Assembly (NCBI GenBank): GCA_905178155.1
Contig: CAJINV010000004.1
Coordinates: 6,972,358 to 7,036,357 of the forward strand
Length of the DNA stretch: 64,000 nucleotides
Source of the DNA: Amoebophrya sp. A120
Lineage: Eukaryota > Protista > Dinoflagellata
Direction of reading: 5' to 3'
A program made the position numbers and the translations under genes. The notes beneath the pieces were generated by a model. It was not told the origin of the DNA. It was given only the letters and a program-made list of their open reading frames with translations, and searched no databases. Of this stretch, positions 1,703 to 50,160 are shown in pieces (within the stretch, counting starts at the first letter, position 1; each line of letters opens with the position of its first letter).

Positions 1703-4700
1703 CAAAGGGCATACAGACGATTTGCGTGGCGTTCGACGCGAAAATGCAGTTCTGTTTCAAGGCTTGCTTGTTTTCTTCGTCTCGTAATTTTTCGATCTTG
1801 TCAAAGTACGCCTTTTCCCACACGAAGTATTTCAGTATATGACAGCGCACAACCCCCCCCTCCCAGTCCCACCCATTTGTCATGCAAAATCCCAAATCCA
1901 GTCGCTTCCCTGCTGTGGCACTGTTTGCATGACAAATTTCGAAAGCCCAAACATACAGTACTACAGTACGAGGCACATAAATTTGTAATGCGCAAGCTCC
2001 AGGTGGGTATGGGTAGCTGGCGTTTGTATTGCAGTTCATGCAAAAATACAAATGAGATGAGGGGGGGTTGTTGACTGTCATACACTATCCGGATGTTCGA
2101 CAAAACCTCGTCGCAGAGCCGCAGCCGCTGCTCCGTGTAGGTCGCCCGCTTGTGCTTCGCACGAAACAGGCACTTGCTCCAGATGAAGCCGAGCGGTCCG
2201 GAAAGTGTCAGAATCGCGAGGTAGAGCGCGGCTGGGACGAGGGTTAACAATTCGAAAAGAAACGCAGCCGACGCTAAGACCAGCAACGGCGCGCCCCAGA
2301 CTTGGTGCAGGTTTTGCGCGGCGTCGACGAATATCAAGCGCAAATATGCCTGGGTCTGGAAGAGTGCACGTTTGTCATGCTTGTGTGGCATGACTCTTAA
2401 ACCTGTCACGCACGCTACCCATGAGCCACGCTTTTCTGTCATGCAGAAACGCGCACTGTCATGCAGAATAGGCAACACCTAGAAGCTGCAGCTCGGAAAC
2501 TTGTCATGCTGAGCCAGCACTTGTGGCCACCTCATGGTACGCCACACAGCATCACAAGTTTCCAGACCCAGACCACATATTTGCAACGCATAACGAAGCG
2601 CTGCGACTCGTTGCAGATCAGGTTGGTCTATGCATTGCAAAAGCATCGTACTCGTATGGCAATTATGCATTACAATATATTTTCTCAAGGTAAATCCGCA
2701 TTACAAATTTTATGTCTCGCGCTGAGGGAATTTGTCATGCATTTATACGAGTGTGATACTTTTGCAATTCATATGGTCGCAATGGCCGCGCGGTCCTCGT
2801 CGGGGTCTTCTTCTCCCCGTTGTGTAAGGGGCGGGTGCGCACCAGGTGAAGACCCCCGTTCCTTTGTCTGAGGACCTACGTCAACCAGTGGTCTGATCTC
2901 ATTTTCTACCGCCAACCCGGGGACCGCATCCGGACTGGCGCAGTTGGAAGCGAAGGAGCTTCGGTGCTGGATGGACAAGCGCTTCTCAGCGTTTTGCAGC
3001 TGTGTGGATAAGCGACGGGATGGTACTAGTACTTCATCTTTACTCTTTTCAACATCCTTGGTGTCCCCACCTCTATCTGTAGTTCCCCCCGCAGCTGCCG
3101 TGCCCGAGCTACCGACGTCCTGCTGCCCCACCGTCTTGTGAAGGTCAAAAGTCGAGAGAAAACACCTGTGAATCAGATACGCGCGAATCCGGACCGCGAG
3201 CCGCATATTTGTGTGCACCGCCCAGTTTTGCGCAACGCAGCTCATCACCAAGGCGAGGTAGAGGAGGACCACGTAAGAGAAGGCGGCGTGGGAGGAGTGG
3301 GGGATGGTGTTGCTGTTGTCTGCTAAAAACTCTGCTCCTGGTGTACTGGTATGCGCTTGTAGATGTTCATCTTCACTTGTTCCATGTTGACCAATATGGA
3401 TTGCAAAAATGTCTGGGTCTGGAAGGTTGGAACTTGTGATGCTAACTCTGGACTCTAAAAAATTCTGTATTGCATGACCAGCAAGAGGAGTCCGGTTTGT
3501 GCTACGCGTGGAGGGGATTTGTCATGCGGAATAGGCATCAGGAAGGCCTCTTGAAATCTGTGATACTAGGGCTTTCATGACAGACATTCTGTGTCATGCA
3601 AAAACAGCATAACAAATTTCGGATTCTTCCAGACCCAGACATTTTTACATTTGATAACCAAGATCGTTTTCCACATGCGCCACCAGCTCCGAAATGGGGG
3701 ACAGCTGTATCGTAAGGAAAAATCCCCCCTTCCCATATTCAAAGCGCATTCGTCTGAAAATTTGTGATGCACATTTGTCACCACAAATCCGGCCTGTCTT
3801 CCGAGAAGGCAAAGCCAGAGAGTCCGTCGCATTATGTTTATGCAGGCGGTTTGCGATGCTGCTGGGCTTACAGCGCAGACATCTGCCATGCTAGTCGCCT
3901 ACGTCAAAACCTCTCGCCTCAGGCTCGGCACATGCCTGCAGTCCTCTCCAGCAAGACAGACCTTAGTTGTGTACACAAATCCAGCAACATAAGTTCCCGG
4001 TTCAATATGGGGAGGGGGCTTTTCTCACTTTGATAAGCTGCGCAGCCGCATCCTCGCCGTTTCTGCCAACCCCGGATGGAAAAAAGAGGGCGTCCTCGCG
4101 GTCGCCCTTCCTTATGCTGTGCAGCAGTGCGTAGATGGCAAGCGGGATCGACAACCGCCAACAGACCTCGGTTAGTTGCAACAGTGTATCAAGTGCAAAT
4201 GTGTCTGGGTCTCGATGGTTGAACTTGTAATGCTAGCTTTACACTCCTGGGAAATCTGTATTGCATACTTAACCGACAAAAGCCGCAGCCATTTTTGTCA
4301 TGCAAGAATGAAAGCAGTTTCTCATGCGCACTGCCTATGAGAAAGCGCTCCGGAAAGTTGTCATGCTGGGCTCCTGCATTCGGAAGTGTTTCCATCATGC
4401 ACACTTCAACATCACAGGTTTCCAGACCCAGACATATTTGCATTTTATACAGTGCGCCGAAGAGCAAATGGCCCTTCTCCCGGTGGAATACCTCCTCGCG
4501 GAAGCGGCGGGGAGGAGAAGGTGGATGTTGTCCTGGTGTCGCTTGGTGCTGCTGAGGCTGTTCTTCGTTTCCGGCATCAACATCATTACCATTCCCGCTT
4601 TGCTTGTCGGTAGCCGGACGAGCTTTAGATGAAGAAGTGCCCGGTCGTGGTTCTATTTCGCTAGTATCGCCAAAAGCATCTTCGCGCGCGAGTGGCGGGA

Positions 4701-5196
4701 GGTCGTTGAGCGTGATCGCCCGGCCTTTTTTCAGGGTGCTGGTATGGATGTGTCAGAGTTGAAATCGACAAAGTTGAAATAATTTGTCATGCATAAAATG
4801 GATACCAGTTGGAACCCAGTTTCCAAGTGGCGCATGACAAATTTCGGTGGTCCCTAAATCCAGTCTGTCATGCTGTTTAGGCAGAGAAGAGCGATTTTCT
4901 CATGCTACTTTAGCAGCTGGAGCTGTAACCCCAAACAGGCTGACAATCGGCCTCATTTGCCCGCTCTGCAACGCACGTACCTCGGGTCATGCATTTTATG
5001 CATTACAAAGTATTTCAACTTTGACGATTTCAAACCTGACGCTTCCATAGTTGGAGATTTTGGTGTAGAACGGGTCTCCCTGAAGCCGGAACCACTGCGC
5101 GCAGCAAGAGAAGAGGCTGGTGGTGGTCGTGTGGGGGGACAAAGTCGAGCGATTATCTACGTCACTACGTAAAGACGAGGACGAAGAGGAAGACAT
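1703..5196 (-). CDS. ABCC/MRP-type ABC transporter, 5' part (TMD1), split by 7 introners; continues leftwards
   Basis: Spliced product reads KKGRAITLNDLPPLARED...NMRLAVRIRAYL...TNLICNESQRFVDAAQNLHQVWGAPL...EQRLRLCDEVLSNIRILKYFVWEKAY, which are ABCC TMD1 motifs; every junction is in frame. Confidence 0.85.
1838..2082. mobile_element. Introner family F
   Basis: TIR TATGACAGCGCACAACCCCCC / GGGGGTTGTTGACTGTCATA; TSD CAGTA/CACTA; removal gives NIRI(L/V)KYFVW. Confidence 0.9.
2332..2592. mobile_element. Introner family A
   Basis: TIR TATCAAGCGCAAATATGCCTGGGTCTGGAA / TTCCAGACCCAGACC...GCATA; TSD ACGAA. Confidence 0.92.
2629..2773. mobile_element. Introner family B
   Basis: TIR TATGCATTGCAAAAGCATCGTACTCGTA / TACGAGTGTGATACTTTTGCAATTCATA; TSD TGGTC. 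Confidence 0.92.
3395..3656. mobile_element. Introner family A
   Basis: Family-A TIRs; TSD ACCAA; frame restored. Confidence 0.92.
3708..4035. mobile_element. Introner family E
   Basis: TIR TATCGTAAGGAAAAATCCCCCTTCCCATATT / AATATGGGGAGGGGGCTTTTCTCACTTTGATA; TSD AGCTG; paralog at 35005. Confidence 0.92.
4187..4449. mobile_element. Introner family A
   Basis: Family-A TIRs; TSD CAGTG; gives LLFGAL|LQLTEV. Confidence 0.92.
4743..5049. mobile_element. Introner family C
   Basis: TIR TATGGATGTGTCAGAGTTGAAATCGACAAAGTTGAAATA / TATTTCAACTTTGACGATTTCAAACCTGACGCTTCCATA; TSD GCTGG/GTTGG; close inverted paralog at 49488. Confidence 0.92.
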
Positions 5197-6532: not shown

Positions 6533-8825
6533 CTACGCCCCACCCAGACCCGTCGCGAGTTCGCGTACGCACCGCACGCAGCGACAGTCGAAGCCGTATT
6601 CGCGCAGCATTTTTTGCCGCTTTTCCACCGGATCGCTGTCCTCCACGTAGCAGACGAACAACTCCTCCCCGGCGCGGATGGGCCGCAGGGCGCGCGCGGA
6701 CATGACGTGATTCCCGTTGTCGAAGAAGAATTTCATGTTCGGTTCGCAGCTGTGGTTGCAGCGCGCGATCTTCGCGGAGAAGGCCGTCGCGTGGTAGGCC
6801 GGCCACTCCTTGGCCAGCAAATCTGCCCCGGAAATGGCCGCAACCTCCGCGCGGATTTGCTCCCACAGAAAGTCCGGGATCCCGTTGCCACCGGCTTCTT
6901 CCAAAGTCATCTCCTCCGGGGGGCAATCCACGCATTCGAGGCCGTTATCTTCGGCGTTGTTCATTTTTCTACTCTGCTGTTCTTGACCTTCTTCTTCCAT
7001 GCCCTCCTCGTCCTCGTCGTCTTCGAACTCTTCGTCATCATCCACGTCGTAATTCCCCGTGATACTGTCGTCCCAGACGCATCTCGTTAAAACCTCCCGC
7101 GACCGCAGTAATTCCTCGTACGCAGCCGCTTCGTCTGCGTTCTATCAAATGCAAATATGTCTGGGTCCGGAAGAATCTGAGTTTGTCATGCTAGATCTGA
7201 TCGACACAAAAATCTGTATTGCATGACCAGCAAAAGCTCCCACTTTTGGCTACTCGAACGCAAGATTTCTCATGCGGAATAAGCATCGAGGAGCCCCCTT
7301 CTCCAAACTTGTGATGCCAGAGCCCGCATTCCAACCTTCTGGGTCATGCGTAACCTGCATAACAAACCTTGCATTTTCCAGACCCAGACACTTTTGCAAT
7401 TCATACGTTCTTTTGGTTCGCCACGTTGGCGAAGTGGTTCGCGAAAAACGGGGTGAGAAAGCTGTCCACCTGTAAATCCACGTTGCAGACCTCGAACAAT
7501 CCGAGGATTTTCGTGAAAAATTTCTCGTCTGCAAAAAGCAACTCCAATTCACGGGCCAGCTGCTTGTTGTGTTGACACTCGGAATTGAAAAATTTCGCGA
7601 AGTGGGACTTGAGTAAGAAAAAACCCTGGGACAGCGTTTGAGCAGTTTCCTTCTTAAACTCGTCGTCTTTCGGGCGGTTCGGGGGCGGCCGACAAACGTC
7701 GAGGAAATCCCCGTGGCAAAACTCGAGAAGTTCCTGCATTAAAAGTTTCATAGACGGAGGTGGAAGTTGCTGCTGTTGCTGTTGCTGTTGCGGAACCGAG
7801 GAAGTAGAGGAAGAAGAGGAGGAAGACGATGATCCAGACGAGTTATTATTTCCCGCCGCATTTAGATTTATCCCTCTCCTCACCTTCTGCACCAAATGCG
7901 CCATAACCTTTGCTGCCAGCATCATGGTTTCTATGAATTCGATCGAGTGCATCTTGAACTCCACAAGGGCGTTATCCTGAGTAAAAACGTCCCCACACCA
8001 GAGTCAGGATGGGGATTTTGCAACACAAGCCTAGGAGTTTTGTGAGTCACGCATGACAAGTTGCATTCCGCAGTGTAGTGCAGGTTAGCAAGTGCAGCCG
8101 CGTCACAGATTCATCTGCTCATCCTGTTCACAGCATCACAAATTCCAAAACACGATTGGAAATGGCTCTCAAGGGGATGCACATTACAAGTCTTCCTGTC
8201 TTTGCAAAACTCTGGTGTGGGGACGTTTTTACTCAGGATAGGCGTCGGTCTGGGATTCGCAACTCGCAACGCACAGAATCTCGTGCGAATGCGTCCAGTC
8301 CGCGAGGCGGCACTGCTCGCTGCAGTACCGCTCGCCGCACTGGCATTTCACCATGGTGGAGGCGGCCTGTTGATATCGATTGAGGTCGGTGGAAAAAGTT
8401 GAAATATGTCATGGAAAATTTGTTGCTCTGCTTCTGCCTGTTGCTATTGCAGATCCCGAGTACAACATCATCAAACTTTCTATGCAAGATGAAAACAAAC
8501 TTTATACGCCGAGTCCACTCTGCCATTTTTCCACGTACGGTAGTATTTTCTCGAGCATCGGCTGGAAATGCGGCTCATCGCCAAACATTGATTCCAACTG
8601 CGTCCCGATGCACGGTACAAACCTACTGCAGTACGCGCAGTTGGTGCAGAACCTGCGGTTTCCCGTATGCTGCAGGGAAAACAGCGGTGTGTCCTGGAAG
8701 ATGACGGCATTCTGTTCGATGGGCACGTTGCAGAAAAGCCCGTAACCCGAGTCGGCGTTGTTGTCGGAGACACCGGACTTCTTAATCACGATGGAGGGCT
8801 GCTGTTGCTGTGTCATGGCCGCCAT
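6533..8825 (-). CDS. SET and MYND domain protein (SMYD5/ATXR2-like lysine methyltransferase), ~536 aa
   Basis: GYGLF..., MYND CAYC...CQCGERYCSEQCRLADWTHSHEILC, SET NHSCEPN...GEELFVCY, post-SET FDCRCVRC; GT-AG intron 8367-8507 plus two introners. Confidence 0.88.
7143..7405. mobile_element. Introner family A
   Basis: Family-A TIRs; TSD CGTTC; frame restored (NQKN|ADEAAA). Confidence 0.92.
7973..8240. mobile_element. Introner family D
   Basis: 32-bp TIR TATCCTGAGTAAAAACGTCCCCACACCAGAGT; TSD GGCGT. Confidence 0.93.
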
Positions 8826-9646
8826 TTTGATCGTCGTGAAGAAAGGATCAATAATTTTCCGCGGGGTTCACAGTTGTAAGGGGAAATAAAGTACTTATCA
8901 AATGTTCTTCAATAAAATGAACTTCGATCTTTTATCTCCGCAAGAAGTGGGCGCGCGCAAAGGTCTAAAACACAAGACCAAAATGTCTAGCTCAGCAGTG
9001 TGAATGCAATCAAGAAGCCTGCACCATCAATAGATGTAAGTAGTAGATACCAAATGCGTCGCTGTGTGAAATAGAGAAAACTAACATGATCCAGATTTTC
9101 AAAGAGGCGTTCGAATAAAATTGTAATTGTTCTAAGTAGCTGATAGGTTCCATGGGGATCTGTCAGGTTGCAAGTGGGCGAAATTTTTGGATTTGCCCGG
9201 CCCTCTGGTAAGTACGTCAGAAGATGATCGCAGAAATTCCACCTTGCTTTCAAACTCTGGTTTCTTCTTCTTCACCGTGATCTCTTCAGAGGTGGAAGAT
9301 CAACGTGATGTACTTTCAAAATTCTCTTTTCTCTTGGATCCAGCCCAACGAATTTGACAGGGGCGTTTCTTCTGATCCTTTTTTGTGCTTGTCTGACAGA
9401 TCTTTTGACCACTTTGACAGCAAGAGCGAATGCAAATACGGGATCGGTTGTTCCATGATGATCGAACAATCGCCGTGATCGCATGCTCGTTGTCCCCTGC
9501 TTTCGCCAATGCAGGAGGTCTTCAGGCTGCATGCTTTTTATCATGTTGCGGTTGCGCGTTGGCGTTCTACTCTGTAATCAAGTAATATTTTGTCAGAGTT
9601 GTACTTGTTCTTCTGTCGGTCGTTGTGTGATACAAATGGTTCGTCT

Positions 9647-10063
9647 TTACCTTTCCCCATCCCCTTCGTCTGCTGATATGTAGAGAACATTGTTCCCTCG
9701 GAGGAACAAGTTACTTGAGTAGTTTGCGACCACAGCACCGGTTGGGCTAAATTCCTGTGCATTGTCCAGGACCACGTTCATGTACCTGGTTTTGGTCGTT
9801 TTGGGAATGTCAGTTTGTTATGGGGACGAAAGGGAACCGAAACAGCAGTTGATGAGGTGTTTTTAAGTACGAGGACACACTATCGTGGTTTACTACGAAA
9901 AAAAAAAAAGGAAAAACAAATCTCGATTTTCTCTCATGTACCCGTCCAAGCATGTCAAGTCGCCCCTGTAGTCAGTCCCATTGTTCAACTTTACTATTAC
10001 CGCCTTCCCGACAACGCCCTGGATAAACTCGCCGGGACTGCGCTTCTTGCCGATGGCCGACAT
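9647..10063 (-). CDS. LSM6: U6 snRNA-associated Sm-like protein LSm6 (86 aa, one GT-AG intron 9786-9941)
   Basis: SPGEFIQGVVGKAVIVKLNNGTDYRGDLTCLDG|YMNVVLDNAQE...LFLRGNNVLYIS contains the Sm1 and Sm2 motifs. Confidence 0.88.
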
Positions 10064-11907: not shown

Positions 11908-13871
11908 TCACCTCCCCTCGGCATCTCCCACCAGAAACTTCCCCGCCAATCTTACCATCTCCACGTCCATCTTCCGGAACATTTTCTCCCGCTGCTGCAA
12001 CTTCACCTGCTTCAACAACTCCTGCCCCTGCGCCAATGCCACCGTGTCTTTCGCCGGATTTATTTCGGCAAGGGAGAGCATTTTCCACTCCGCGTCCCGT
12101 CCGCTCATCTGTGCATGCGCGAGCGAGCGGATCTCCGCGTATTTTTGCTTCTCTTCCTTGGGGAAGTCAAACAGAACGGACAGGCAGTAGCCTTCGTAGC
12201 CGAAAATCCGCATGTTGCACGGGAGGAAGAAATTGCAATCTTCGAGGAGTTTGAATTTCTTCTCCAGTGTGTCCTGGACGATTTTTTTCCTCTTGCTAGC
12301 CGGCATTTTCTGAAAAAATTCCGCCTCTACTCCTGCTTCCATGAAATAGTCGATTTTGCCCTGTATTTCGTCGCTCTGCTCTAGGAAGTCGTCCCAGTTG
12401 GCGTTTTGTTTGGTTCTTTTCCGAGCCGCCTCACTGCAGCTTTTACCCTCCGTGTTATTTTTTGCAGTCGTCCCCGGCGAGCACATATCGCGGCGGTCAC
12501 CGAGGGCGCGAGAGGATCCAATACCATTTTTTCCGCTCGGATTACTACACACCTCGCACTGGCAGGTGAAGCCCATGGTTTGTTGGCACCATTGCAGGCG
12601 GGTCTTTCTGTCGCTCTCCATGATGTCGACGTCCATGTAGCAGATGCAAATTTCCTCCTCCGGCTCGATGTCGCGAATGGCGACAATGACGACCTTCCCA
12701 TTGACAGCACTTCTGCTCGGCTCGGCTAAAATTTTTGCTCCTCCTGCTTCATCATCAACAGCGTCGCTCGATGAAGAAACATTACCTGACGTCGGCGCCG
12801 CACCTTCTTGGTCATAATGCCAGGTGTAAACCGCGTTCGGCCGGCAGCTGTGGTTGAACCTCGGGACGATTTCCGTGCAGAGGGCCATGTCTTCCTCTTC
12901 TTGGACCTGACTGTGGTGCCCATTTTCATCCGCAACCACCCGATAACACGACGGCCCGGGCACCGCGTTGGACCAGAATTTTGCGGACAGGCGTACGGAA
13001 ACGCTCTCTTCGTACCGTTTCGCTGGCACGCCGACCGATTTCCCAAAATCGCTGAGCTGCAGGATCTTCTCCTGTAGGGTTGGTTTCCGGTCGTGGTCGT
13101 GGTCGTGCTGCTCCTCCCCTGGAAGCGTGCTCTGCTGCTGTTGTTTTTGTTTCTCTCCACCATCCTCGCGGGTGGTGGAACAAGTTCTTGTAGAATTTCC
13201 AGAGCTCCTCCTACAGATAATTTCTCGGTCCACAAACTCCAGCATTTTCTCGTCAGTAATCATTTTCGCCATGTTAAATTTGTTCCTTCCCTGGATCACA
13301 CAGGATTGCTCGTTATGCATTGCAAATATGTCTGGGTCTCGAAAGTAGCAACTTGTCATGCTAAATCCGAATCATGCAAATGCAAAACTCTGTGTTGCAT
13401 GAGTGCCAAAGGCTGTCTACTTTCGACCAAGTTGGGAGGGAGTTTCTCATGCAGGAGAGGCACGGCAGAGACCTCACAGAGTCTGTCATGCTAGGTCTCG
13501 CATTGTTCCGGACCTCATGGGTCATGGAAAACCTGCATGACAAGTGTACCCGCTTCCAGACCCAGCCATTTTTGCATGTGATACTCGTAGGGCAGGATCG
13601 ATTTCGGCTGCTCCGCCACGACAATCTCCCCCCGCTTGATGGAATCCGTCGCGAAAACGCCTTTTCCTTTATTCGGAATGTCGGCGACAGTGATTTTGGT
13701 TGCGCCAGTCGTGGCTGCCGCGCTAGGTGGACGAGGACTCTTCTCTTTATAATTCCCTCCATGGCTTTCTGGCGCCGCTGGTTCCGTCGGGGATGGCGCA
13801 GGAGTCGCCTCGGATGCGGATGCTGTAGTACAGGAGCGCTGGGAGGTTTTGGAAAAAAGGGAAGAGCTCAT
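11908..13871 (-). CDS. SET domain protein (SMYD-like), ~562 aa
   Basis: IPNKGKGVFATDSIKRGEIVVAEQP...RFNHSCRPNA...AIRDIEPEEEICICY...GFTCQCEVC; one introner. Confidence 0.85.
13314..13583. mobile_element. Introner family A
   Basis: Family-A TIRs; TSD CTCGT; LPYE|QSCV. Confidence 0.92.
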
Positions 13872-33900: not shown

Positions 33901-36900
33901 CGATAGCGGGGATCTGTAGTTTCCTCTTCGTCGATTATCCCCAACTCGACGGTTGTGGCAGCACCTGCTGTCGCGGTCATCCGGGTCGCTGTGTCCACGT
34001 CGGTATCCGTGTTCGTGTTCACGTTCATCACGCTAATGTCTTCATCAGCTAAGTTATAATTCACCGCAGAATATCAAGTGTAAAAATGTCTGGGTCTGGA
34101 AGAATTCATGTTTGTCATGCTTGTCTGGCATGACTCTTAAATCTGTCATGCACGTCATCCAAGAGCTCCGCTTTTCGTTTTCTGTGATGCAGAAGCGCAG
34201 TTTGTCATGCAGAATAGGCAACACCTAGGAGCTCAGAAACTTGTCATGCTGAGCCAGCATTTTGATTTTTAGCCTCATCATGAGACGCCACCCAGCATCA
34301 CAAGTTTCCAGACCCAGACATTTTTACATTTGATACGGAAACCTCTGCCGCCGCCTGTTTCAACAATTTCTCCTCTTCATTCAGGGTCCTTCTCCGCGGA
34401 TCAGCTTTAATATTTGTACTCAACGCAGCCAACTCCGCGGACAACTCTTTATCCAGGTCCGCGTCACCGGTAGTCGTGAGTTGTGCCTGATCTGTAGTAA
34501 TTCGGAGGTCTGTTATTGCCGCAGAATTATCTCCATCAGCGGCAGCGAGGCGAGGAGACATTGCCATGCTAGAACCAGGTTTAGTATTACCGTCTGCTGA
34601 CACTTCTGCTGTTCCTTTTGTACTATTATTTATTTCCGCGTCTCTGTCCTCCTTCAAGTGGTCGATGCTCCTCTCAAAAAGCAGTTCCATGTGGTCCACA
34701 ATTTGGAAAAACCGGTTATCAAATGCAAAAAAGTCTGGGTCTGGAAGGATGCGCAATTTGGCATGCTGATCTGGCATGGCCCTTAAATCTGTATTGCGTG
34801 GCCACAAACAGCCTCTCTCGCCTGTCATGCAAAAATGCAGTTTCTCATGCGGAATACGCAGCACAGAAGCACGAAGCAACTTGTCATGCTTGGCGGCGCA
34901 TTACAGTGCATTTGTATATTGACTGACTTGCATCACAAGTTTCCAGACCCAGACATTTTTGCATTTCATACCGGTCCATGTGCTGCAGGGTTTCCTTCTT
35001 TCGCTATCGTAAGGAAAAATCCCCCCTCCCCATATTGAAAACGTATCCGTCTGAGAATTTGTGATGCGCATTTGTTACTTCAAGTCCTGTCTGTTTTGCA
35101 AGAAGGCAAGTCCAGAGAGCGCCCCGCATTTTGCAGGCGGTTTGTGATGCTGTTGGGCTTAGGGCGTACACGTTTGCCATGCTAGGCGCCTACGTCAAAA
35201 CCTCGCGACTGAGGCTTGACATATGCCTGCAGTCCTCTACTGCAAGACAAATCTGACTTCTGTACGGAAATCCAGCATCAGAAACTTCGTTTCGATATGG
35301 GGAGGGGGGATTTTTCCTTTTGATATCCGCGCCAGCCGCTGTTGCTGCGTGAGAATGGCGTGCTGGGTGTTTTCAGCGACGGTCACATCTTTCACATCCG
35401 TGCTGTACCGCTGCCGGTCCTTCGTCAACGGGATAATCACCGGGGAGTCCATGGACCGGGTTTTGGACTGCGTCAACCGCTTTCGCTGCCTCTTGTTCAT
35501 CGCCCTTGTTTTCGAAGAGGACTTCTCTTCTTCGAGTTTAGAAGAATTTTGATTTTCATCTCCCTCTGCCCCGAGAAGTTCTTGTACAGACCTACTGCGA
35601 CTGCGTCCTCTACTTCGTCCGCGGGGGGCGAAGAAAGAACTTGATGCTCCTCGTCCTCCTGCAAAACCGCCCTGCGTACTATAATTCTTCCGCGCGGCCC
35701 CAGCTTTTTCTTTCTCCATAGTCGACAGCAAATCGTTCGAAAGCTTATCGAGGTTCAGCTGGGCGCCGCTGGTGCCGGCCTCCTTCGCATCTACTGTCGA
35801 CGCACCGGTTGCACCATCTACTGTGTCTAGTTTGATCGTAGGGACCTCAATGGCCGCGACAGCCACCGGCTTTATTGATGCGACAGGGAGTTGTGCAGCA
35901 ACTCCCGCTTGCTGTGTGCTGGTTGCAAGAACCTGTTCCTGCTGCAATGCACCGAAATCCTGACTGACGGCACTTTGGAACCGCATCGCCTTGTAATTCT
36001 TTGCGGCTTCGGCACTTGTAGAGGTTCCTCCCACGACAGCAGGAGCACCAGCAGCGATCTCTGTTGCTGGTTCCACGAAAGAAGAATCGTGGGGAAGCTC
36101 CGGCTCGGCCAAGTCGTTCTGGTTGGATGCGGCTTGTTGTCCTCCGGCTTGCACGAGCTGCCGGTTCATCTGGGCCGCATTTGTACTGCCAGGTGGAGGA
36201 CCACCTCCTGCAACAATAACTCCCTGCTGGGTGGACTGCTGCTCCTCAACTACGTTCTCTCCTCCAGCAGTGCCTCCCAACAAGTTGGTTCCACCGAAAG
36301 TAAAGTTGTATTGCTGAGCGGATCCGCTTTTGATTATGTTCGTCACGGCACTGGAATTGGTCGCAGCTAAGCTTCCGTACAGGTCGTCTGATGAATTATT
36401 GCCGTAGTTTATTCCAGTAGAAGCTTGAACGAGCTGTTGCCCTCCAGAGGATATTACCTGGTCCGCTCCGAAGTAAGTTTGCTCCTGCTGCACGATGGTT
36501 GACTGGTCTTTCTTATCAAATGTAAAAATGTCTGGGTCTGGAAGGGTTGGAACTTGTGACGCAACCTCTGGAACACACAAAAATTTGTCATGCATGAGCG
36601 CCAAAAGCTGTCCATTTCTTGGCACGCAAGAAGGAAGTTTCTCATGCGGGAGAGGCATCATGAGGCGTGCTCAAAACCTGTGATGCTTTTGCCTGCATCA
36701 GACGCCATTTGCCTTTGCGTGATCCGAAATATGCATGACAAATCTCGCAATCTTCCAGACCCAGACATTTTGACACTTGATATTTCTTCGAGATCGAAAG
36801 ACTGAACAAGACGGGTTTTATTTTGTAGAGTAAGCTATTGCCAGCATTTGGCGTCAGGTTATTGGAATTTCCAGCTGCAGAAGATGAGCCTCCGCCGGCC

Positions 36901-40351: not shown

Positions 40352-43282
40352 TTACACGACTTCTAAGTCGAGTTTGTTGTCGGAGAAGTTCAGTATGTCA
40401 TAGTTCTTCTCCCGCATCTCGTGCGTGCGGATCGCGTATCAAATGCAAATATGTCTCGTTCTGGAAACTACTTGAGGACGTCTCCAGTGCCGGCCACGCA
40501 TGACAAGTTTTTAAGCTCCTAGGTGCGTGTTGCCTGTTCTGCATGGCAATGTGCGTTTCGGATGACAGGAAACTGGGGTGTTTCTGTAGCGTGCATGAGC
40601 ATGACAGACTTGAGAATCATGCTGGCCGAGCATGACAAACTTTGCATTTTCCAGACCCAGACATATTTGCAATGCATATCGCACGCGCCCGAGCCATTTC
40701 GCGCCCGGCGTCCGAGGAGTCGAAGAGGCGGTAGTGCGCTATGGGACTCTCAAACGTTACACTCCCAACCTCTACATGATTTGTCATGCACAATGGGAAT
40801 CAGAATCGACACGATCAAGCTGTCTCGCATGACAAATCATCGAAGGGCCAAACAGGCTGAGAACCTGCGCCAAATCTGTCGTGCAAGACACGTCAACTAC
40901 ATGTCCCCGCTTTCACTTTGGCCATTCTTGCATTACAAATCCGTGTAACAGTTGAACATGTAACAGTTGAGAGCGCCATATGCGTGTCAAAGTAGCGGTA
41001 GGGGTGCCTTACCGGGTCGACGTCTTTGCGCTGGATGGGAATGTCGTGCGATCTGGGATCTACCATCGGAAACCGGTTCAAACCTTTACAGTGTATAGTG
41101 AATTTATGGGTGTGTCAGGATCGAAATTCTCAAAGTTGAAAAAAAAATCCGGGGGCCCCTGAAGAGGTGCCGGCATTTTGCGTTTCAACTCTGACACATT
41201 CGCCCCCCCTCCGAGCTAGCCACCACGCTATGCTGGAGTGTGTCAGAGTTGAAGGGGGTCCCGGAGGGGGTGCCCTGAAGGCCCCCGCCAAGGACTGCCA
41301 GAATTTTTTTTCAACTTTGACGATTTCAATCCTGACACTGCCATAGAATTTTCTTCAGAAGCTGCAAGCGAGATCTATAGGGATTTTCTTGCACGACGAA
41401 GATGTAGATGATGAAATACAACGATAAGATCAAAGCGAATGACTAGAAGTACGATGAACAAATTGCTTCTAATATTAACGTAATATACCGTTCTTAACAT
41501 TCTCGTGTTGTGGGTGGGTAATCGCCTCGTTGGCCTGTCTTTCAAATGCAAAAATGTCTGGGTCTGGAAGATTTCTGGATTTGTCATGCATATTTTCCAT
41601 GACCCGTGATGTCTGTGACGCATGCCGTAGCATCAGAGATTTTTGGGGCGCTTCTTCATGCCTGTTCCGCATGACAAATGCCATCTCCGCGGAGCACAAA
41701 ATCTACTCCTCTTACTGATCACGCAATACAAATCTTTTTCGAATCCAGAGAGAGCATCACAAGTTTAGAATCTTCCAGACCCAGACATTTTTGCACTTGA
41801 TACTGTCGCTTCTCCTTCAGAAACTCTCGCCTTTGGTCTGCGTGACTCGCGTCTGCCTGTGCTTGGTACATATCGTACCTAGGTGTCGGGTGCGTTGTTT
41901 TTTCCGACGTAGCTGTCATGCAGGATGAACAATACAAAGTAGCTCAGCAATACAAATTAAATTTGTATTAATGCGGATCTGCCTTAAAACAAAGATTTGT
42001 AATGCATGAAAGCATGTGCTTATCCATTTGCTACCTTTCTTTGTAGAGTTCCGTTTCCGGTCTTGTAGGTCCATCGATTCCCGTCAGACCGTTTTTGTAG
42101 TGCCTCTGGATCAACTTCGACTGCCTCTTGAATCTGTGAAATATTTTTTCATTTGATTTACGCCCCGTGCATTACCTTTATGTAGCGACGACTACCGCTG
42201 GCGCTACGGGTACGACCATGCGAAAAGACTATATTTTTTTCAAGTAGACCAAAGACAAAAAATGCTGTGTTTGAAAGAAAAAGAGGAATTACAGCGAGAA
42301 AAAACATAAAGTACGCTGAAAGCTCGGCTTTTGCTTTGTTTGCGTAGGCGATGCCCTCTTTTAGCCTCTGGTTTTCTCGGAGTCGCTCACTCGGGAGCTG
42401 TATGGAGAAGTTCTTAAAGATTTCCAGGTGGTCTTGGTTTATTGGGTGAAAGCCCGGGAGCTTGTGGCACCCCTCCTTCTTGTCGCCCTTGTAGCCGTCG
42501 TACCTGCGAAGTAATTTTTGAATTTCAGTTGCGTTGCGTACCTGCCAGTGTTCAACTCTTTTAAACCAGAACCTTTCAGACGTCGCGTTTCTTGGAAAGG
42601 CTTACACGACAGCTGCATCATTTACATATGATGTTGTGCGCCCTAAGTAAAAATGCAACGAAAAAATTAGTTTTTTTGATGAACAGCACACTTCATTTTG
42701 ACGAGAAACAGAAAGAGGAACTCCAATCATACCATAATGGTGGCTTATTTGACATGTCCATGGCTATTCCCGGGAATTTTCGGTCCCTTCCTTCGCATGT
42801 GAACGAGGGTGATGGTCTGCTGGACCCGTGGCAGTTTGCGAGGGGCAGCGTGCGGCTGAATTTGTCGGAGTCCCGGGTGTTCTGGTTTTTGTAGTACGGA
42901 TCGTGTATGGGAGTGTCAGGTTTGAAATCGTCACAGTTGAAATAGTTTGTCATGCATAAAGATAAAACCGATATATGCCAGCCAAGCGGCGCGTGACAAA
43001 TTTTCTTTTTCCGAGCGCCGGAATCCAATTTGTCTTGCTGTTTGGGAGCAGCAAACTGCTTTTGTCATGCTACTTTAGCAGCTCTACTTCAAACCCTACA
43101 CAGGCTCACAATCGGCCTCACTTGCTATCCCGGCAAGAAAGCCACTTCATGTCTTGCATTTTATGCATGACAAATTATTTCAACTTTGTCAATTTCAAAC
43201 CAGACACTTCCATACCGTGCGTTTTCAGCATACCATCGAGCCGGAGCGCCTCGTGCGGCGCCGGCTGGACTGTGTAGGACAT
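40352..43282 (-). CDS. Multi-exon hypothetical protein (mix of canonical and introner introns; middle exons not fully resolved)
   Basis: In-frame exon chain KLIQRHYKNGLTGIDGP...RYDMYQ...KRQ|ANEA...KNG|LNRFP...TH|YRLF...RA|IRTHEMREKNYDILNF; first exon MSYTVQPAPHE. Confidence 0.6.
40437..40678. mobile_element. Introner family A
   Basis: Family-A TIRs; TSD TCGCG/TCGCA. Confidence 0.88.
40740..40980. mobile_element. Introner family I
   Basis: TATGGGACTCTCAAACGTTACA / TGTAACAGTTGAGAGCGCCATA; TSD TGCGC/TGCGT. Confidence 0.86.
41105..41345. mobile_element. Family-C-ended MITE inside a canonical GT-AG intron (41084-41488)
   Basis: Family-C TIRs; TSD GAATT; distinct GC-rich interior lacking TGTNATGC motifs. 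Confidence 0.88.
41540..41802. mobile_element. Introner family A
   Basis: Family-A TIRs (left end TTT instead of TAT); TSD CTGTC. Confidence 0.9.
41879..42034 (-). other. GT-AG intron derived from a decayed family-B introner
   Basis: Interior resembles family B; flanked by TACCT direct repeats (AG|GTA on the mRNA strand); TIRs eroded. Confidence 0.7.
42906..43214. mobile_element. Introner family C
   Basis: Family-C TIRs; TSD TCGTG/CCGTG. Confidence 0.9.
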
Positions 43283-44044
43283 TTTTTTTTTTGATGGAGG
43301 AGTTCTAGAAACCCTACTACGACAATGGCGAGTCGACGTCGCGCTCGCCCTGTTGCTTCTACTGGGCAGCTCGGTAGCGCAGCCACTAAGTAGGCAGTAC
43401 CCCAGCTACTGTTCTTGCACTACTTGTTCTTGTCTTTCTATCCCGCCGCGAAGTCGTGGGTGTGGGAACGACCAAGCTACAAATAACGAACAAGAATCTA
43501 GCAAAACGAATCACCATCGCTCTCCTCGACCACGACAACACAGACAACAACCCCTCGTGCCCACGAGTGAGGTACTGCGACAACGACGACGTAACGGCAA
43601 AGGAAGATTCCTCATCTCTGCTTGTTTTACTTCTAGTTTTACGACGCGCCTCTTCATTCCTTTACAACTTTTCTCTCTATACAGTTGCAGGTGTTCGTAC
43701 TCGTCAGCACAACTCAGTTGTAGGGTTGACATCATATATGTGTCTTTCACGATACTGACACAGACCTGACGGCACAACTACTTCTTCTCATGGCAGGAGA
43801 ACACATCACCGCTTCTAAAGTGCGATTTTTAGGCTTCGCAAGAGCAAAAGCTTCGCAGAACCAGAAGTACATGGAAATTATTGTGTCGCTGATGTCGCTT
43901 AAAGTGTCGTACATCGAGTGGCTGTGGTCCAACTCTGAGGACGAAGAGGATGCTGGCCCCCTTTGTCTTGGTACGCATGTGTATGGCCTCATCATGATCT
44001 TCGTGGCTGTCGCGCATCAAAATGATCTAAATCTGACCCGCAGC

Positions 44045-47000
44045 CTATGACTGTCGTGACCGTTTCGCCCCCGGTAATCCTCCGCCCCCATCTTGGAGGT
44101 CCCCTAAATCTCGCACCTCCCCGCCCCCGCCCGCCACAGCGTCCCACCAGGCCTGTGTCGGAGCCAACGATACTACCAGCGCCGTCAAGTTGTCCAACGA
44201 GTACCGCTGGAAGCTCTCCCGCACCACTCCGCGCGCACCCTGTGCGGCCGCGTGTCGGACCGGGTGCGTCAGCGTGCCGGCGGGGGACAAGCGGAGCAGG
44301 TCGGCCCGGGGCTTCAGCACCATTTCCAACCCCGCACGGTAGTGGCCGTGACACACCGTCGCAGCATCGTGGTCGGAAACCACGTCCCACACACCATCGC
44401 ACGCTAAGAGGAGCAGAAGGTCGCGGCCTGGTGTTTTGAGAAGTAGAGGTGGATGTTGAGCTCGGAAGGCACATGAAGAAACATCAAATAAAAAGTCGAA
44501 CTAAAGAAACGTCGCGAAATAAAAACCCAGTAGCAACATCATATGCGAAAATAGAAGGTGGATCACTGTGATTCACAAAAGGTGGCAAAGAATCTACTCG
44601 CGGATTAAGTATGTATTTACCTGGCGTGATATGAAAACACGTGATCTCGGGTTTGGCGGACACCAGGTCCCTCGCGCCTTCTATCAAATGCAAAAATGTC
44701 TGGGTCTCGAAACTTGTAATGCTAACAGTGTATCATGATAGACGCACTACAATACGCAGCTACGCATGACAAATCTTTTGGCTGCAGTGTCTTACGTATT
44801 CCGCATGGCAAACTGCGTTTTTGCATGACAGGCAAGAGGCGGGCCTTTTCGTGCCTATGCAACACAGGTTCTCGAATCATGCTAGACAAGCATGACAAAC
44901 TTGCACTCTTCCAGACCCAGACATATTTGCATGTGATACCCTCGTTCGGCGCACCAAAGCTCCGCGGGTCTTTCAGAGGCAAATCGCCAAAGCTGCGGCT
45001 GACCGCCAGCCCCCACTGCACGAACCGATCGCCGATCTGCAACGGCGAGGGGGTGAACACGCGCGCCACGCCGGTCATGTCCTGCACAACTCCGCCGCTG
45101 GCCTCGATGCGCCGCTTTTCGTCGGGCCGGTCCGGTTTGTGGTCGTCTGAGAGGCGGTAGCCGGACACCGGCCCGCAGGGGACGAAAATCTTCCTCTCCG
45201 GCGGTGATGGGTCTTGTTTACCATCCTTGTCCCTGTCCTTTTTGTTCTTTGCGTTGTCTTTTTCCTTGCCCGCCGCGGTGCTTGTTCCAGGTATTGGGGC
45301 GTGCTTCACCGTGCGGTAACTCCCGTCCTTCTGCTGAATCGGGCCCTTCTTTTGAACCTAGGATGGACCGGAGATCGTGGAATTTATGGATTAGCATTAG
45401 GTAATGCTTGCTAGTAAACGTTGGATATCTATTACGGGTTCATCGTACGGGAACGGGTTCGGGTAAAAGAAGAAGCACAATAAACAGATCAGAACTACTA
45501 TTGGTTGTCACAATCATATATAATGTCAGATCATAGTACCATCACAGCTCTTGTGTCCCCGATGTTTGCGATCATGAGACGCACGTTGCTGCATTGCGAG
45601 GGGTCGGACGGAAGTCGCAGGTCCGGGGAGTCTTCCCACACTTTGTCGCTGCTGGTATTCTTTCCACCGCCGCCGCCCCGCGACGAGCCCGAGGAGGAGG
45701 AACTTGTGCTCCACAGATCCTCCCACAAAATCCCCACTGTGGCGGTAGTGCCGTCCATGTCGAGCGTGGTTTTGGCCTGCTTGCACCACTTTCGGTCCAA
45801 CTCCTCGAAGGTGTCTTCCACGCATTGCCTCAAGTACCGCTCGGTAAGCTTGTCGTCGACAGAACTGTCTTTTTTATTCTTATTTCCACCACTAGAGGAA
45901 GAAGAAGCACTCTTCGCGTTCTTGGCGCCTCCTGCTGTACTATCGGGCAGCTGCAACTCCCCGTCAAGCTCGTCGTCCGAGTCGGATTTGTTGTTTCTGC
46001 CGAATTTGTTCGACTTCAGCTTCCGCTGCAGAATGGGAAACAGATTCTTCTGCGCGTACTCGCTGCACAGGTGCCCGCTGTGCCCGTCGAACACGGCGTA
46101 GCCCACCAGGTTCTCCTTCTGCGGGCCCTCCATCACACAGTCGTAGCAGAATCGGTCCTCCTATGACAGTTCACAACTCCCCCTCCCGGCCCTCATTTGT
46201 CATGCAAGACCCCGAATCCAGTCGCTGCCTTATGGCACTGTTTGCATGACAAGTTCTGGTAGCCTAAACAGTACTACATCAGGTATATAAAAAATTTGTC
46301 ACGCATAGGCTCCACGTGTGCTGGTGTTTGTATTGCTGCTCATGCCATACGAATGAGGGTGAGGCGGAGTTGTGCACTCTCATACCTCCTGCGCGTCCTT
46401 ACCGCCCATCCAGGTGGATACACCGCAAGACAGATCCAGCTCGGGAAAGATAGAGAGGTCCTTTTCGCTATACCTGTACGTCGTCGATGATGTTCGGATT
46501 GTGGTGATAAAACTCATGATCTCTAGTCGTGGGATGAAGAAAGGCGCACTATCTTGTCGTGCGAGGGCGGCCGCATTAGGTGGAGATGTTTGATGTGCAG
46601 ATAGAAGCAGTAGAACCAGGAGTGGACAACTTTTTGTTGAAAGTTCAATCTTTACTACGCGTATGCGTAAATGGTACTTTTTCAACAACTATTTCTATTA
46701 CCTGAGATGCGGGTACTGTCTCCCGCTGTCAAGCTCCTTGAATTCTGGATACAGCATACTATCCGGCGGAGGGTTCATTGGATCGATGTCCATCAGCTTG
46801 GGGCTGTTTTATAAATGAAATTTTGTCGAAGCTGCTTTTTTTGTCATTCATCTCATTGGATGGATATTATTTCGTGTAAGGTACATCGATACCTCGTCTA
46901 GAAGACTACATGCATCTTTGGGGGGTAGTTGTAGTTGAAAATGTAGTCAAAGTCAAATTTATACTTGTCCAGATCGTCTTCGTCCTCCTTCACGGCGCTC

Positions 47001-48439: not shown

Positions 48440-50160
48440 CTACGAGTATTTCTCGAAAAATGCCTCCACGAGCATGTGCCTTTTCTCCCGCGGCCGCAGA
48501 TCTCGGTGCTGTAGCACTTCCGCGAAAGCACGCGGGAAAAAGTCTCGACGCGGATCTTCTTCTTCCTTGGTTTTCGTTCTTTCGAGCGACTTTTTCTTTT
48601 CGTTACTGCTCTTCCTGGTGTCCTTCTTACTTTCTTTTGCTGCTGACTTGCTGCGTTTATTGTCGACGTCGCTTTTTGTTTTTTGGCCCAGCAGCTGCTC
48701 GCCCAGCGTGTCCTCGTCTCTGCCGCCTTTCGTTTCAGGGTTATTTTTGGAAGTACCTCCACCTGCAGTATTTGTGTTCATCATAGTACTAGCACGAGGC
48801 CTCTGGAACACGATACTCCCTGCGTGTGCGTTGAAGAGCGCTTTTTCCGCGGAACTTGCTTCTACCGCCAGGGCTACTTCTTTCCTCGCTTTCTCCGGTT
48901 TTTCGTGCAACAATTTTCCGAACTCGGGGTTCAAAAGGTGGAAATGCGTTCCAGTCACGTGATCCTCGTCGTGCAAGATCAATTCTTTTTTCAAAAACAC
49001 CGCTTTCACGTACTGCAAGAGGAGAATCAAGTTCCTGTGCGGGTGCTCCTGCGCCTCGCCGGCAATCAATTTCGCTGGGGAGGTGGAGGACGAATTTATC
49101 ACTCCTCCCGGGCCTTGCTGCTCCTGCTGCGCCCCCCGTCGTCTGCGTTTTGTCCTGTTCTGTGGGTAGTTATTTGTGGTTAACACCAAGGGTGCCAGGT
49201 CCAGCCGCCCGGTCTCCGGATCGACTAGCGGATGGGGGAAGTGGGTACGAAAAATTACCTCCACGCCGTGCATGCTGTGTGGGTAGAAAGTGCTGGCGGT
49301 TGGGTCGGAACTTTCCGCTCCTGGGGAAGTGCCAGTGGAACCACTGCGCGCGCCCCCTCTTGCCGTCGAGTGTAGTTTGTTCATTCCGCCTGAGGTACTA
49401 CTAGACGGGAACATGATTGTCGGAATGCTAATCGAGAACCTCACGGTTAAATTCCTGTACAACCCTCGGTGGATGAACAAACAGCCGTATGGGAGCGTCA
49501 GGATTGAAATCGTCAAAGTTGAAATAGTTTGCAATGCATAAAATGCATGACCCGAGGTACGTGTGTTGCAGAGCAGGCAAGTGAGGCCGATTGTTGGCCT
49601 GTTTGGGGTTACAGCTGGAGCTGCTAAAGAAGCATGAGAAAATCGCTCTTTTTTCCCTAAACAGCATAACAAACTGGATTTAGGGACCACCGAAATTTGT
49701 CATGCGCCAATTGGAAACTGGGTTCCAACTGGCACGCATTTTATGCATGACAAATCATTTCAACTTTGTCGATTTCAAACCTGACGCTTCCATAAGCCGT
49801 GCCAGTGCCGTAGATCGCGAAAATCCGGTAGCTATCCTGTGCAAAAGTATCGCACTCGTACTTCTAATCGCATTCATGCATTACAAATTTCTTTCTCAAG
49901 TTAAATCCGCATTACAAATTCAACTTGTAATGCTGAGCCAATTTGTATTGCAATTCATACTAGTACGATACTCACACTTTTGCAATGCATAGTAGCACGT
50001 AGAGGTTGCGAGGACAGTGGCTGGCCAAGAGGTCGTACTCGCAGAGCAGCTCAAAATCTTCCCCGGAGATCTCCTGGTTTTTCGCCGTGCGGGCGTCGAG
50101 GAGGGCGCGGTTTTTCCGTCGGGAGGACGGGGAGAGGGCTTGGATGAAGGAGTCTAGCAT
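48440..50160 (-). CDS. AKTIP: AKTIP/FTS/crossbronx-like UBC-variant protein, ~414 aa
   Basis: LLCEYDLLASHCPRNLYVL|PDFRDLRHWHG|CLFIHRGLYRNLTVRFSISIP...FPHPLVDPETGRLDL...LLQYVKAVF. Confidence 0.8.
49488..49794. mobile_element. Introner family C
   Basis: Family-C TIRs; TSD AGCCG; inverted near-copy of 4743-5049. Confidence 0.92.
49833..49991. mobile_element. Introner family B
   Basis: Family-B TIRs; TSD GTAGC. Confidence 0.92.

What the first reader, a model, noticed from the sequence alone, without database searches (positions are those of the whole stretch)
2332..49991. Shared internal motif TGT(C/A/G)ATGC repeated in all otherwise unrelated introner families
Seen: copies of A, B, C, D, E, F, H and I carry several TTGTCATGC/TTGTAATGC/TTGTGATGC motifs in both orientations (GCATGACAA etc.), although their TIRs and other interior sequence differ. 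The motif appears rare in exons. Inference: a convergent or exchanged cis-signal, bound by a splicing factor or transposase, that marks these elements in an orientation-independent way. It is a candidate for the recognition code of non-canonical splicing.
Basis: partly seen in the sequence, partly recalled or inferred. Interest (0 to 1): 0.85.

Follow-up and report, generated by a model that had tools for sequence, protein, structure and literature searches.

The report
Helically phased sites inside parasite introners
The jumping introns of this marine parasite genome carry several copies of one short DNA word spaced in step with the turn of the double helix, which likely marks a landing strip for a DNA-binding protein that helps them jump, rather than the RNA code that gets them spliced.

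Summary
The motif is real. It occurs 103 times against 6.8 expected, and 98 hits lie in 34 TAT...ATA, 5-bp-TSD elements matching published Amoebophrya A120-type introners. RNA-type contigs show exact removal for 14 of 18 elements covered. In 158 related loci (497 full copies with the window's, 15 families) the site reads WAYTGTNWTGC and is about 50-fold enriched.

New: sites are helically phased (period 10.3-10.5 bp, 0 of 500 nulls), and inverted sites sit half a turn off. That geometry fits double-stranded DNA, not RNA. The splicing-code reading fails several tests: inverted sites show no covariation; either polarity alone occurs; conservation is equal in GT-AG-compatible and non-canonical copies; sites decay after insertion. 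The families are partly homologous, so convergence is not needed. Elements never nest in each other, cluster 30-89 bp apart whatever their family, and prefer a T.G...C.A target.

Best reading: a phased protein-binding array serving transposition (0.55). A DNA-level mark that also aids splicing is not excluded: the two motif-poor elements found both sit inside introns. The binding protein is unidentified.

The parts
1838..2082 (.).
2332..2592 (.). A-type introner, 5 strict motifs
2629..2773 (.). B-type introner, 3 motifs; 36 bp from its neighbour
3395..3656 (.). A-type introner, 3 motifs
3708..4035 (.). C-type introner, 1 strict motif; 51 bp from its neighbour
4187..4449 (.). A-type introner, 3 motifs
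4743..5049 (.). D-type introner, 4 motifs
7143..7405 (.). A-type introner, 2 motifs, in a SET-domain gene
7973..8240 (.). E-type introner, 2 motifs
13314..13583 (.). A-type introner, 3 motifs, in a second SET-domain gene
21732..22047 (.). D-type introner, 5 motifs
22818..23028 (.). F-type introner, 3 motifs
25539..25700 (.). H-type introner, 1 strict motif; an RNA-type contig piece starts at 25701
26216..26360 (.). B-type introner, 3 motifs; removed with one TSD (length arithmetic)
26406..26667 (.). A-type introner, 3 motifs; removed with one TSD (length arithmetic)
27987..28136 (.). B-type introner, 3 motifs; removed with one TSD (length arithmetic)
28233..28387 (.). B-type introner, 3 motifs; removed with one TSD (length arithmetic)
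28467..28729 (.). A-type introner, 2 motifs; removed with one TSD (length arithmetic)
32324..32613 (.). A-type introner, 3 motifs; removed with one TSD (length arithmetic)
32698..32976 (.). E-type introner, 4 strict motifs all in one orientation; removed with one TSD (length arithmetic)
34072..34335 (.). A-type introner, 6 motifs at offsets 42, 73, 112, 132, 171 (forward) and 224 (reverse); removed with one TSD (length arithmetic)
34717..34970 (.). A-type introner, 4 motifs; removed with one TSD (length arithmetic)
35005..35325 (.). C-type introner, 2 strict motifs; removed with one TSD (length arithmetic)
36514..36782 (.). A-type introner, 3 motifs; an RNA-type contig piece ends at 36508
40437..40678 (.). 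A-type introner, 3 strict motifs in one orientation; joint 40430>40678 seen directly
40740..40980 (.). I-type introner, 3 motifs; joint 40734>40981 seen directly
41105..41345 (.). Element with D-type TIRs and perfect 5-bp TSD but NO motif; lies inside canonical GT-AG intron 41084-41488; a few related copies in the DNA-type run
41540..41802 (.). A-type introner, 3 motifs; joint 41534>41803 seen directly
41879..42034 (-). Canonical GT-AG intron with B-type interior, 2 strict motifs, no TIRs left
42906..43214 (.). D-type introner, 3 motifs; joint 42901>43216 seen directly; its mismatched TSD fixes one side of the splice register
44682..44938 (.). A-type introner, 4 motifs, in a PP2C-domain gene region
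46162..46384 (.). F-type introner, 2 motifs
49488..49794 (.). D-type introner, 2 strict motifs
49833..49991 (.). B-type introner, 3 motifs; 38 bp from its neighbour
63525..63682 (.).
360..1702 (.). Remains of a B-type introner split inside one motif site by a motif-less ~1.2-kb TIR element (about 436-1652)

Best explanation
The motif is a repeated site (WAYTGTNWTGC, typically 3-6 per element) spaced on one face of the DNA helix inside a superfamily of TAT...ATA, 5-bp-TSD miniature transposons, and it is likely bound on double-stranded DNA by an array of one protein, predicted to be the shared transposase or a host helper, that would make the element jump efficiently. Shown: enrichment, conservation as islands among diverged copies, 10.3-10.5-bp phasing between sites and from the element end, decay after insertion, absence of nesting, an insertion hot zone 30-89 bp beside resident elements of any family, and a palindromic T.G/C.A target preference 13-15 bp from the TSD centre. 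Inferred: the sites are kept because lineages that carry them copy better; protein bound on a resident element shields it and draws new insertions next to it. Splicing is likely specified by the terminal hairpin (intron = 1 nt + element + 4 nt), not by this motif.
For: Enrichment: 103 hits vs 6.8 expected; 11.8 vs 0.24 sites per kb inside vs outside elements; 7 sites in 32 kb of other repeats, which include gene paralogues. Conservation: in 229 family-A copies the G of the TGC half is kept in 99-100% at five sites, while family-A consensus columns average 75% identity. Phasing on 15 family consensuses: best period 10.3 bp, z=8.0, 0 of 500 nulls. It stays at 10.1-10.5 bp in all 15 leave-one-family-out runs and after dropping the 28-34-bp class. 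Same-orientation pairs have phase about 0 and inverted pairs about half a turn; inward sites are phased to the element end (n=34, R=0.54). Either G of the site then falls on one helix face whatever the orientation. Not RNA pairing: complementary variable bases in the outer inverted pair occur in 61 of 225 copies vs 94.6 expected. Not tied to splice type: core private changes 30/905 in GT+AG copies vs 117/2867 in copies with neither. Post-insertion decay: core deviations rise from 221/7341 (perfect TSD) to 137/2430 (1-2 TSD mismatches); spacers rise from 9.3% to 12.8%. DNA-level behaviour common to the families: 0 of 497 copies nested and 8 of 8 interrupted elements hold motif-less inserts; 118 of 339 gaps are 30-89 bp vs 52.3+-5.4 in a density-preserving permutation, and 43 of 128 vs 10.4 expected without the family used for searching; target T at -15 and G at -13 in about 50% of 324 sites. 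Precedent: transposase proteins bind subterminal repeats of the Emigrant MITE cooperatively (PMC1636448, abstract) and Hermes BED domains bind short subterminal repeats in both orientations (PMC10368747, passages).
Against: No binding protein or autonomous element was found or searched for genome-wide, and Farhat et al. report no transposase in A120. The element at 41105-41345 has D-type ends, a perfect TSD, several related copies in the DNA-type run and no site, so the motif is not strictly needed to move. That element and the motif-poor L018:1641 (best site 7.9 bits) both lie inside introns, while 267 of 268 coding-context copies keep at least one site; a splicing role predicts that too. Core sites decay only 0.5-0.75 times as fast as spacers between TSD classes, which allows mild selection after insertion, and redundancy would mask it. 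Sites fill the whole element, not only the ends. Families are partly homologous, so the 15 consensuses are not fully independent for the phasing test; with strong sites only and pairs up to 70 bp the best period was 15.7 bp (10.4 bp for pairs up to 120 bp). Outward-pointing sites are not phased to the end (R=0.18, n=28). The hot zone could be a chromatin or exon-length effect unrelated to the motif.
Confidence: 0.55

Rival explanations
1. The sites bind a host chromatin or architectural protein, or position a nucleosome-like particle, on the element. Transposition benefits only indirectly, and new insertions fall in the accessible DNA beside the particle.
For: Phasing across the whole element, not only the ends; family-independent exclusion inside elements and a hot zone 30-89 bp outside; the B-type family is about 150 bp; introner insertion into nucleosome linkers is reported for other algae (PMC9860276, passages).
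Against: The site has strongly specified bases (G 99%, C 97%, T 99%), more like base reading than a bending code. It is nearly absent from the rest of the sequence (0.24 per kb), which a general chromatin protein would not predict. Lengths run from 109 to 323 bp. There is at most a weak second peak in the gap distribution.
Confidence: 0.17
2. A DNA-bound protein array marks introners on chromatin and hands the nascent transcript to the splicing machinery; the terminal hairpin then sets the cut. The motif would be a splicing signal read on DNA.
For: It explains orientation independence and helical phasing together. Both motif-poor TAT...ATA elements found lie inside other introns. 267 of 268 coding-context copies keep a site. 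The central G decays slowest. U1 snRNA was not detected in these genomes (PMC7789003 section 10).
Against: No relaxation in GT-AG-compatible copies or in 25 noncoding-like copies. Two old B-type copies with no site of 6 bits or more sit in reading frames that reopen on excision (L041:4816, L023:16223), though their splicing was not observed and L023 can be read as GT-AG. Sites decay with age.
Confidence: 0.15
3. One reading: an RNA motif bound by a splicing factor or paired with a variant snRNA, i.e. the recognition code of non-canonical splicing.
For: The reverse form GCAUNAC resembles a branch-site pattern (yUnAy, recalled) and often lies about 40 nt from an element end.
Against: Elements insert in both orientations about equally in every larger family. 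21 copies carry only one polarity and 16 only the other. Copies with a single strict polarity are spliced (32698, 35005, 40437). DNA-turn phasing has no reason to exist on single-stranded RNA. No covariation. The 5'/3' asymmetry is not significant.
Confidence: 0.05
4. Neutral relic: the families descend from one ancestor whose repeated ~32-bp unit was inherited; the motif does nothing now.
For: Shared TAT ends and 5-bp TSD; 14 of 105 family pairs are homologous beyond the motif; near-neutral decay after insertion.
Against: Within a family the core is kept while neighbouring spacers diverge (5.4% vs 30.3% from the majority base). Spacer lengths stay modal, and order and orientation differ between families while the phase is kept.
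Confidence: 0.08

Closest known systems
Introner elements of Amoebophrya A120 (Farhat et al. 2021, PMC7789003; Gozashti et al. 2025, PMC12130899)
   Same: TAT-started inverted repeats with an A-run at positions 11-13, short direct repeats at the borders, about 240 nt long, spliced with non-canonical ends.
   Different: In the text I could search, neither paper mentions an internal motif, its phasing, the 30-89-bp clustering or the T.G/C.A target preference. Figures were not visible.
Subterminal repeated motifs of MITEs and hAT transposons (Emigrant/Lemi1, PMC1636448; Hermes STRs, PMC10368747)
   Same: A short motif repeated inside the TIRs in both orientations, on non-coding elements moved in trans.
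   Different: Here one motif is shared by 15 families with different TIRs, fills the whole element, is helically phased, and sits on elements that are also introns. Binding is not shown.
Ginger-like element fam38 of A120 (PMC12130899) and Ginger transposons (PMC2836005)
   Same: Supplement file 8 lists fam38 as 'Ginger, 5-bp TSD, TA/TA Termini', the same ends and TSD length as here. Its integrase-like ORF is the best lead for the mover.
   Different: [quoted passage not shown] No coding element was found in my loci, and I could not see fam38's sequence.
Euglena nonconventional introns (PMC12501133)
   Same: Non-GT-AG introns whose cut sites are set at fixed offsets from paired terminal motifs (N3CDG...CH'GN5-6 there; likely N-TAT...ATA-N4 here).
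   Different: The Euglena code is terminal and was tested genetically. It offers a model in which the ends, not an internal motif, carry the splicing code.

Membership tests
Amoebophrya A120-type introner | IR starts with TAT, then 7 variable nt, then at least 3 A | tested here: met
   15 of 15 family consensuses start with TAT; 11 of 15 have AAA at 11-13
Amoebophrya A120-type introner | Direct repeat of 3-5 nt at the borders | tested here: met
   5-bp TSD perfect in 324, one mismatch in 91, two in 27 and three or more in 12 of 454 copies with intact ends
Amoebophrya A120-type introner | Removed from the transcript with non-canonical ends | tested here: met
   14 of 18 elements in 25450-45449 are removed as element plus one TSD in RNA-type contigs: 4 joints seen directly, 10 by exact length arithmetic. 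The runs are only guessed to be RNA, but they also skip GT-AG introns.
MITE with subterminal transposase-binding motifs | Short motif repeated internal to the TIRs at both ends, in both orientations | tested here: met
   493 of 497 copies have at least one site of 10 bits or more
MITE with subterminal transposase-binding motifs | Motif bound by the transposase | not testable with these tools
   needs binding assays
MITE with subterminal transposase-binding motifs | Motif needed for, or raises, mobilisation | tested here: inconclusive
   conserved along lineages and decaying after insertion, but the motif-less 41105 family has moved at low copy number
MITE with subterminal transposase-binding motifs | Cognate autonomous element in the genome | not tested
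   no genome held; 12 window ORFs gave no transposase family; loci were not scanned for one
Ginger DNA transposons | Termini like Gypsy LTR ends; Ginger1 TSD specific for CCGG or CCGT | tested here: not met
   ends are TAT...ATA and the 5-bp TSD has no fixed sequence
Ginger DNA transposons | Integrase-like DDE transposase | not tested
   no coding element in hand
RNA-level intronic splicing signal (branch site or enhancer) | Fixed polarity on the transcript | tested here: not met
   21 forward-only, 16 reverse-only, 230 both and 1 none of 268 copies; divergence identical for both polarities, 107/2928 vs 101/2730
RNA-level intronic splicing signal (branch site or enhancer) | Stronger constraint near one splice site or in non-canonical introns | tested here: not met
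   5' vs 3' half p=0.09-0.6 in four settings; GT-AG-compatible copies not relaxed
RNA-level intronic splicing signal (branch site or enhancer) | Complementarity to a U2 or U6 snRNA variant | not tested
   no snRNA of this organism in hand; no Rfam match in the window

The most novel reading that the evidence does not exclude
These introners are introns marked on the DNA: a helically phased protein array coats each element on the chromosome, recruits the transposition machinery to insert beside it, and also flags the element for co-transcriptional removal in an organism reported to lack U1 snRNA. That would be a splicing signal read on double-stranded DNA.
Probability: 0.15. Interest if true: 0.93.

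Novelty: new variant of a known kind. Interest (0 to 1): 0.63.

Why it matters
How tens of thousands of non-canonical introners move and get spliced in Amoebophrya is an open question: no transposase was found in A120 and U1 appears lost (PMC7789003). A site shared by the families, with helical geometry, gives a ready DNA bait to catch the protein and simple 5-bp versus 10-bp spacing tests. The family-independent clustering 30-89 bp apart and the ban on nesting could explain how genes come to hold strings of introners around short exons. The inferred 1-nt/4-nt splice register moves the search for the splicing code to the terminal hairpin.

Tried and rejected
They are enriched for family A and may come from another strain.
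- Viral contigs gave 0 matches.
- No holder is on record as RNA.
- Whether motif-free exonic copies (L041:4816, L023:16223) are spliced was not observed and stays open.
- L022:2517, first counted as motif-free by the matrix, has two strict motifs and was dropped as a counter-example.
- An apparent 5'-half vs 3'-half difference in motif decay (3.0% vs 4.4%) did not survive copy-level permutation (p=0.09-0.6).
- The idea that copies with a GT donor lose the motif, suggested by three cases, failed on 268 copies (1931 of 5000 permutations).
- RNA pairing between inverted sites was rejected. Folds of two copies show the TIR stem as the common feature.
- No 10.4-bp periodicity in gap lengths.
- The near-absence of the 41105 interior from RNA-type contigs is not used as evidence.
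- No Rfam match and no earlier scan notes.
- Huff et al. 2016 is not held and is known here only through PMC9860276.
Full report
1. Observation. TGT(C/A/G)ATGC occurs 103 times in the window against 6.79 expected. A search for TAT...ATA ends with inverted repeats, refined by self-BLAST, gave 34 elements of 145-328 bp, each flanked by a 5-bp duplication (23 perfect, 11 with one mismatch). They hold 98 of the 103 hits in 13% of the sequence. Three of the five outside hits are introner remnants. No hit is in a coding exon.

2. What the elements are. Their ends match the published description of Amoebophrya A120 introners: TAT, seven variable bases, three or more A, and short direct repeats (PMC7789003 section 11). 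The lineage is inferred from this anatomy only. Contigs of two RNA-type runs (two samples, one study; RNA status is the tool's guess, but they skip GT-AG introns) lack the elements exactly. Four joints are listed directly (40437, 40740, 41540, 42906). For ten more, the length missing between contig pieces equals element plus one TSD (417, 583, 579 and 854 nt). That is 14 of the 18 elements in the stretch. Of the rest, 25539 and 36514 fit at one border, 44682 was not shown, and 41105 leaves inside a canonical intron. A DNA-type run has contigs running across element ends. Seven mismatched TSDs fit one register: in transcript direction the upstream exon keeps four TSD bases, so the intron would be 1 nt + element + 4 nt. 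Five of the seven are read directly from joints or piece starts, two from piece ends, and only one (42906) bounds the register on one side. The frequent gt and at intron starts in the PNAS table (e.g. fam3: gt 998, at 647 of 3852) agree.

3. A larger sample. The family-A end pattern found 158 loci (713 kb) in metagenome contigs. Profile searches gave 497 full-length copies, window included, in 15 families. Density is 11.8 per kb inside and 0.24 per kb outside, with 7 sites in 32 kb of other repeats. In the eight largest families the core differs from the majority base at 5.4% of positions against 30.3% in spacers. The families are not unrelated: all start with TAT, and 14 of 105 pairs align beyond the motif. 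Common descent with exchange of ends is enough; convergence is not needed.

4. The sites are spaced like DNA-bound proteins. On the consensuses, same-orientation pairs peak at 31-33 bp, head-to-head pairs at 14-16 and 45-49 bp, and tail-to-tail pairs at 16-17, 34-35 and 48-50 bp. The best period is 10.3 bp (z=8.0; 0 of 500 random placements). It stays at 10.1-10.5 bp when any one family is left out, when the 28-34-bp class is dropped, and for pairs up to 300 bp. Inverted pairs sit half a turn from direct ones, and inward-pointing sites are also phased to the element end. With either G of the site as reference, all sites fall on one helix face whatever their orientation. Caveats: families share ancestry; one subset (strong sites, pairs up to 70 bp) peaked at 15.7 bp; outward sites are not phased to the end. 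That such phasing means binding on one face of double-stranded DNA is established knowledge applied here, not a binding result.

5. Tests of the splicing-code idea.
(a) Elements lie in both orientations about equally in coding DNA (family A 54 vs 46), and 21 and 16 of 268 copies carry only one or the other polarity.
(b) The variable base of the outer inverted pair is complementary in 61 of 225 copies against 94.6 expected, so the sites need not pair.
(c) Copies whose ends allow GT and AG are no less conserved than copies with neither (30/905 vs 117/2867).
(d) A 5'/3' asymmetry seen did not survive permutation.
(e) With TSD mismatch as an age proxy, core deviations rise from 3.0% to 5.6% and spacers from 9.3% to 12.8%: the sites decay after insertion at 0.5-0.75 of the spacer rate.
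(f) Two old B-type copies without sites sit in frames that reopen on excision; their splicing was not observed.
Against my reading: the one motif-less TAT...ATA element of the window lies inside a canonical intron, the motif-poor L018:1641 lies inside another introner, and 267 of 268 coding-context copies keep a site. The window element has a few related copies in DNA, so it moved without the motif, though rarely. Two cases cannot decide, and redundant sites would hide selection on any one site.

6. DNA-level behaviour common to the families. None of 497 copies is nested in another, while 8 of 8 interrupted elements hold motif-less inserts. Neighbouring elements cluster: 118 of 339 gaps are 30-89 bp, none is under 23 bp, and neighbours are not preferentially the same family (17 vs 23.7 expected). 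A permutation that keeps local density gives 52.3+-5.4 (maximum 72 in 2000), and the excess remains without family A. In the unselected window 9 of 33 gaps are 34-96 bp. Empty-site reconstruction of 324 insertions shows T at -15 and G at -13 from the TSD centre, mirrored by C and A on the other side, each in about 50%. A wide palindromic preference of this kind is typical of a DDE transposase or integrase complex (my own knowledge). The link between the motif and the hot zone is inferred, not shown.

7. Mechanism. Shown: repeated, conserved, phased sites specific to one MITE superfamily; exact removal of the elements from transcripts; family-independent exclusion and clustering. Inferred: one protein binds the array on DNA; lineages keep the sites because they copy better (0.55). 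Alternatives are a host chromatin protein (0.17), a DNA-bound mark that also helps splicing (0.15), a relic (0.08), or an RNA code (0.05). The best lead for the mover is the A120 family with an integrase-like ORF listed with a 5-bp TSD and TA/TA termini (PMC12130899).

8. Literature seen. PMC7789003: abstract, sections 10, 11 and 16, passages, and supplement text searched; the strings TGTCATG and CATGAC occur 0 times in the main text, CATG and GCAT 0 times in the supplement text; its figures (logos S19-S25) were not visible and may bear on novelty. PMC12130899: passages; 12 of 14 supplement files searched with 0 hits for TGTCATGC and GCATGACA; 38 of 58 A120 rows read. PMC12005148, PMC11282704, PMC10368747 and PMC9860276: passages. 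PMC1636448, PMC12501133 and PMC2836005: abstracts. Searches; one search returned 188 papers, of which the 15 listed were unrelated. I found no description of the motif, its phasing or the clustering in these.

9. Verdict. A real and apparently unreported internal feature of known introners, best filed as a new variant of subterminal binding arrays. It is probably not the splicing code, but it is a direct handle on the unknown protein that moves, or marks, these elements. Interest 0.63.

Noticed in passing
window 25539-43214 (seven mismatched TSDs): One splice register fits all seven: the intron starts 1 nt before the 5' TIR and ends 4 nt after the 3' TIR, so introns begin N-T (GT when N is G). 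One side rests on a single junction.
   Followed up: partly
65 loci of 3 kb or more, including the window: Introners cluster 30-89 bp apart regardless of family and are never nested. Not tested whether canonical introns have the same flanking zone.
   Followed up: partly
324 insertion sites in window and loci: Palindromic target preference: T at -15 and G at -13, C at +13 and A at +15 from the TSD centre, each about 50%.
   Followed up: partly
close pairs of copies in families 0-7: Indels of 3 and 6 nt dominate inside these introns (126 and 45 vs 98 of 1 nt and 32 of 2 nt; pairs not independent), although element length modulo 3 is near uniform. Unexplained.
   Followed up: no
window 436-1652: A ~1.2-kb non-coding TIR element, apparently with a TAA duplication (PIF/Harbinger-like, label recalled), has inserted into a motif site of a B-type introner; it has no motif.
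   Followed up: partly
window 41879-42034: Canonical GT-AG intron with a B-type interior and two motifs but no TIRs: possibly an introner that has become an ordinary intron.
   Followed up: partly
window, all 34 elements: 33 of 34 appear to interrupt exons although the window has long non-coding stretches; the one exception is the motif-less element.
   Followed up: no
TIR positions 11-13 in coding-context copies: [quoted passage not shown] A possible U-tract signal.
   Followed up: partly
L022:505-1608: D-type element with perfect 30-bp TIRs and TSD, enlarged to 1.1 kb by GC-rich repetitive sequence; the four sites are all in the left part.
   Followed up: no
L068:7029-7191 and 7426-7595: A duplicated non-TIR stretch carrying an inverted pair of sites 15 bp apart.
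   Followed up: no
window 11067-11482: Cluster of long inverted repeats of another kind, without the motif.
   Followed up: no
window 6536-13371, 44725-46160, 51451-52119, 54009-60503: Host genes on the minus strand: two SET-domain genes, a PP2C, a Sir2 and a very large URGCP-like GTPase with no introner in 6.5 kb of open frame.
   Followed up: no
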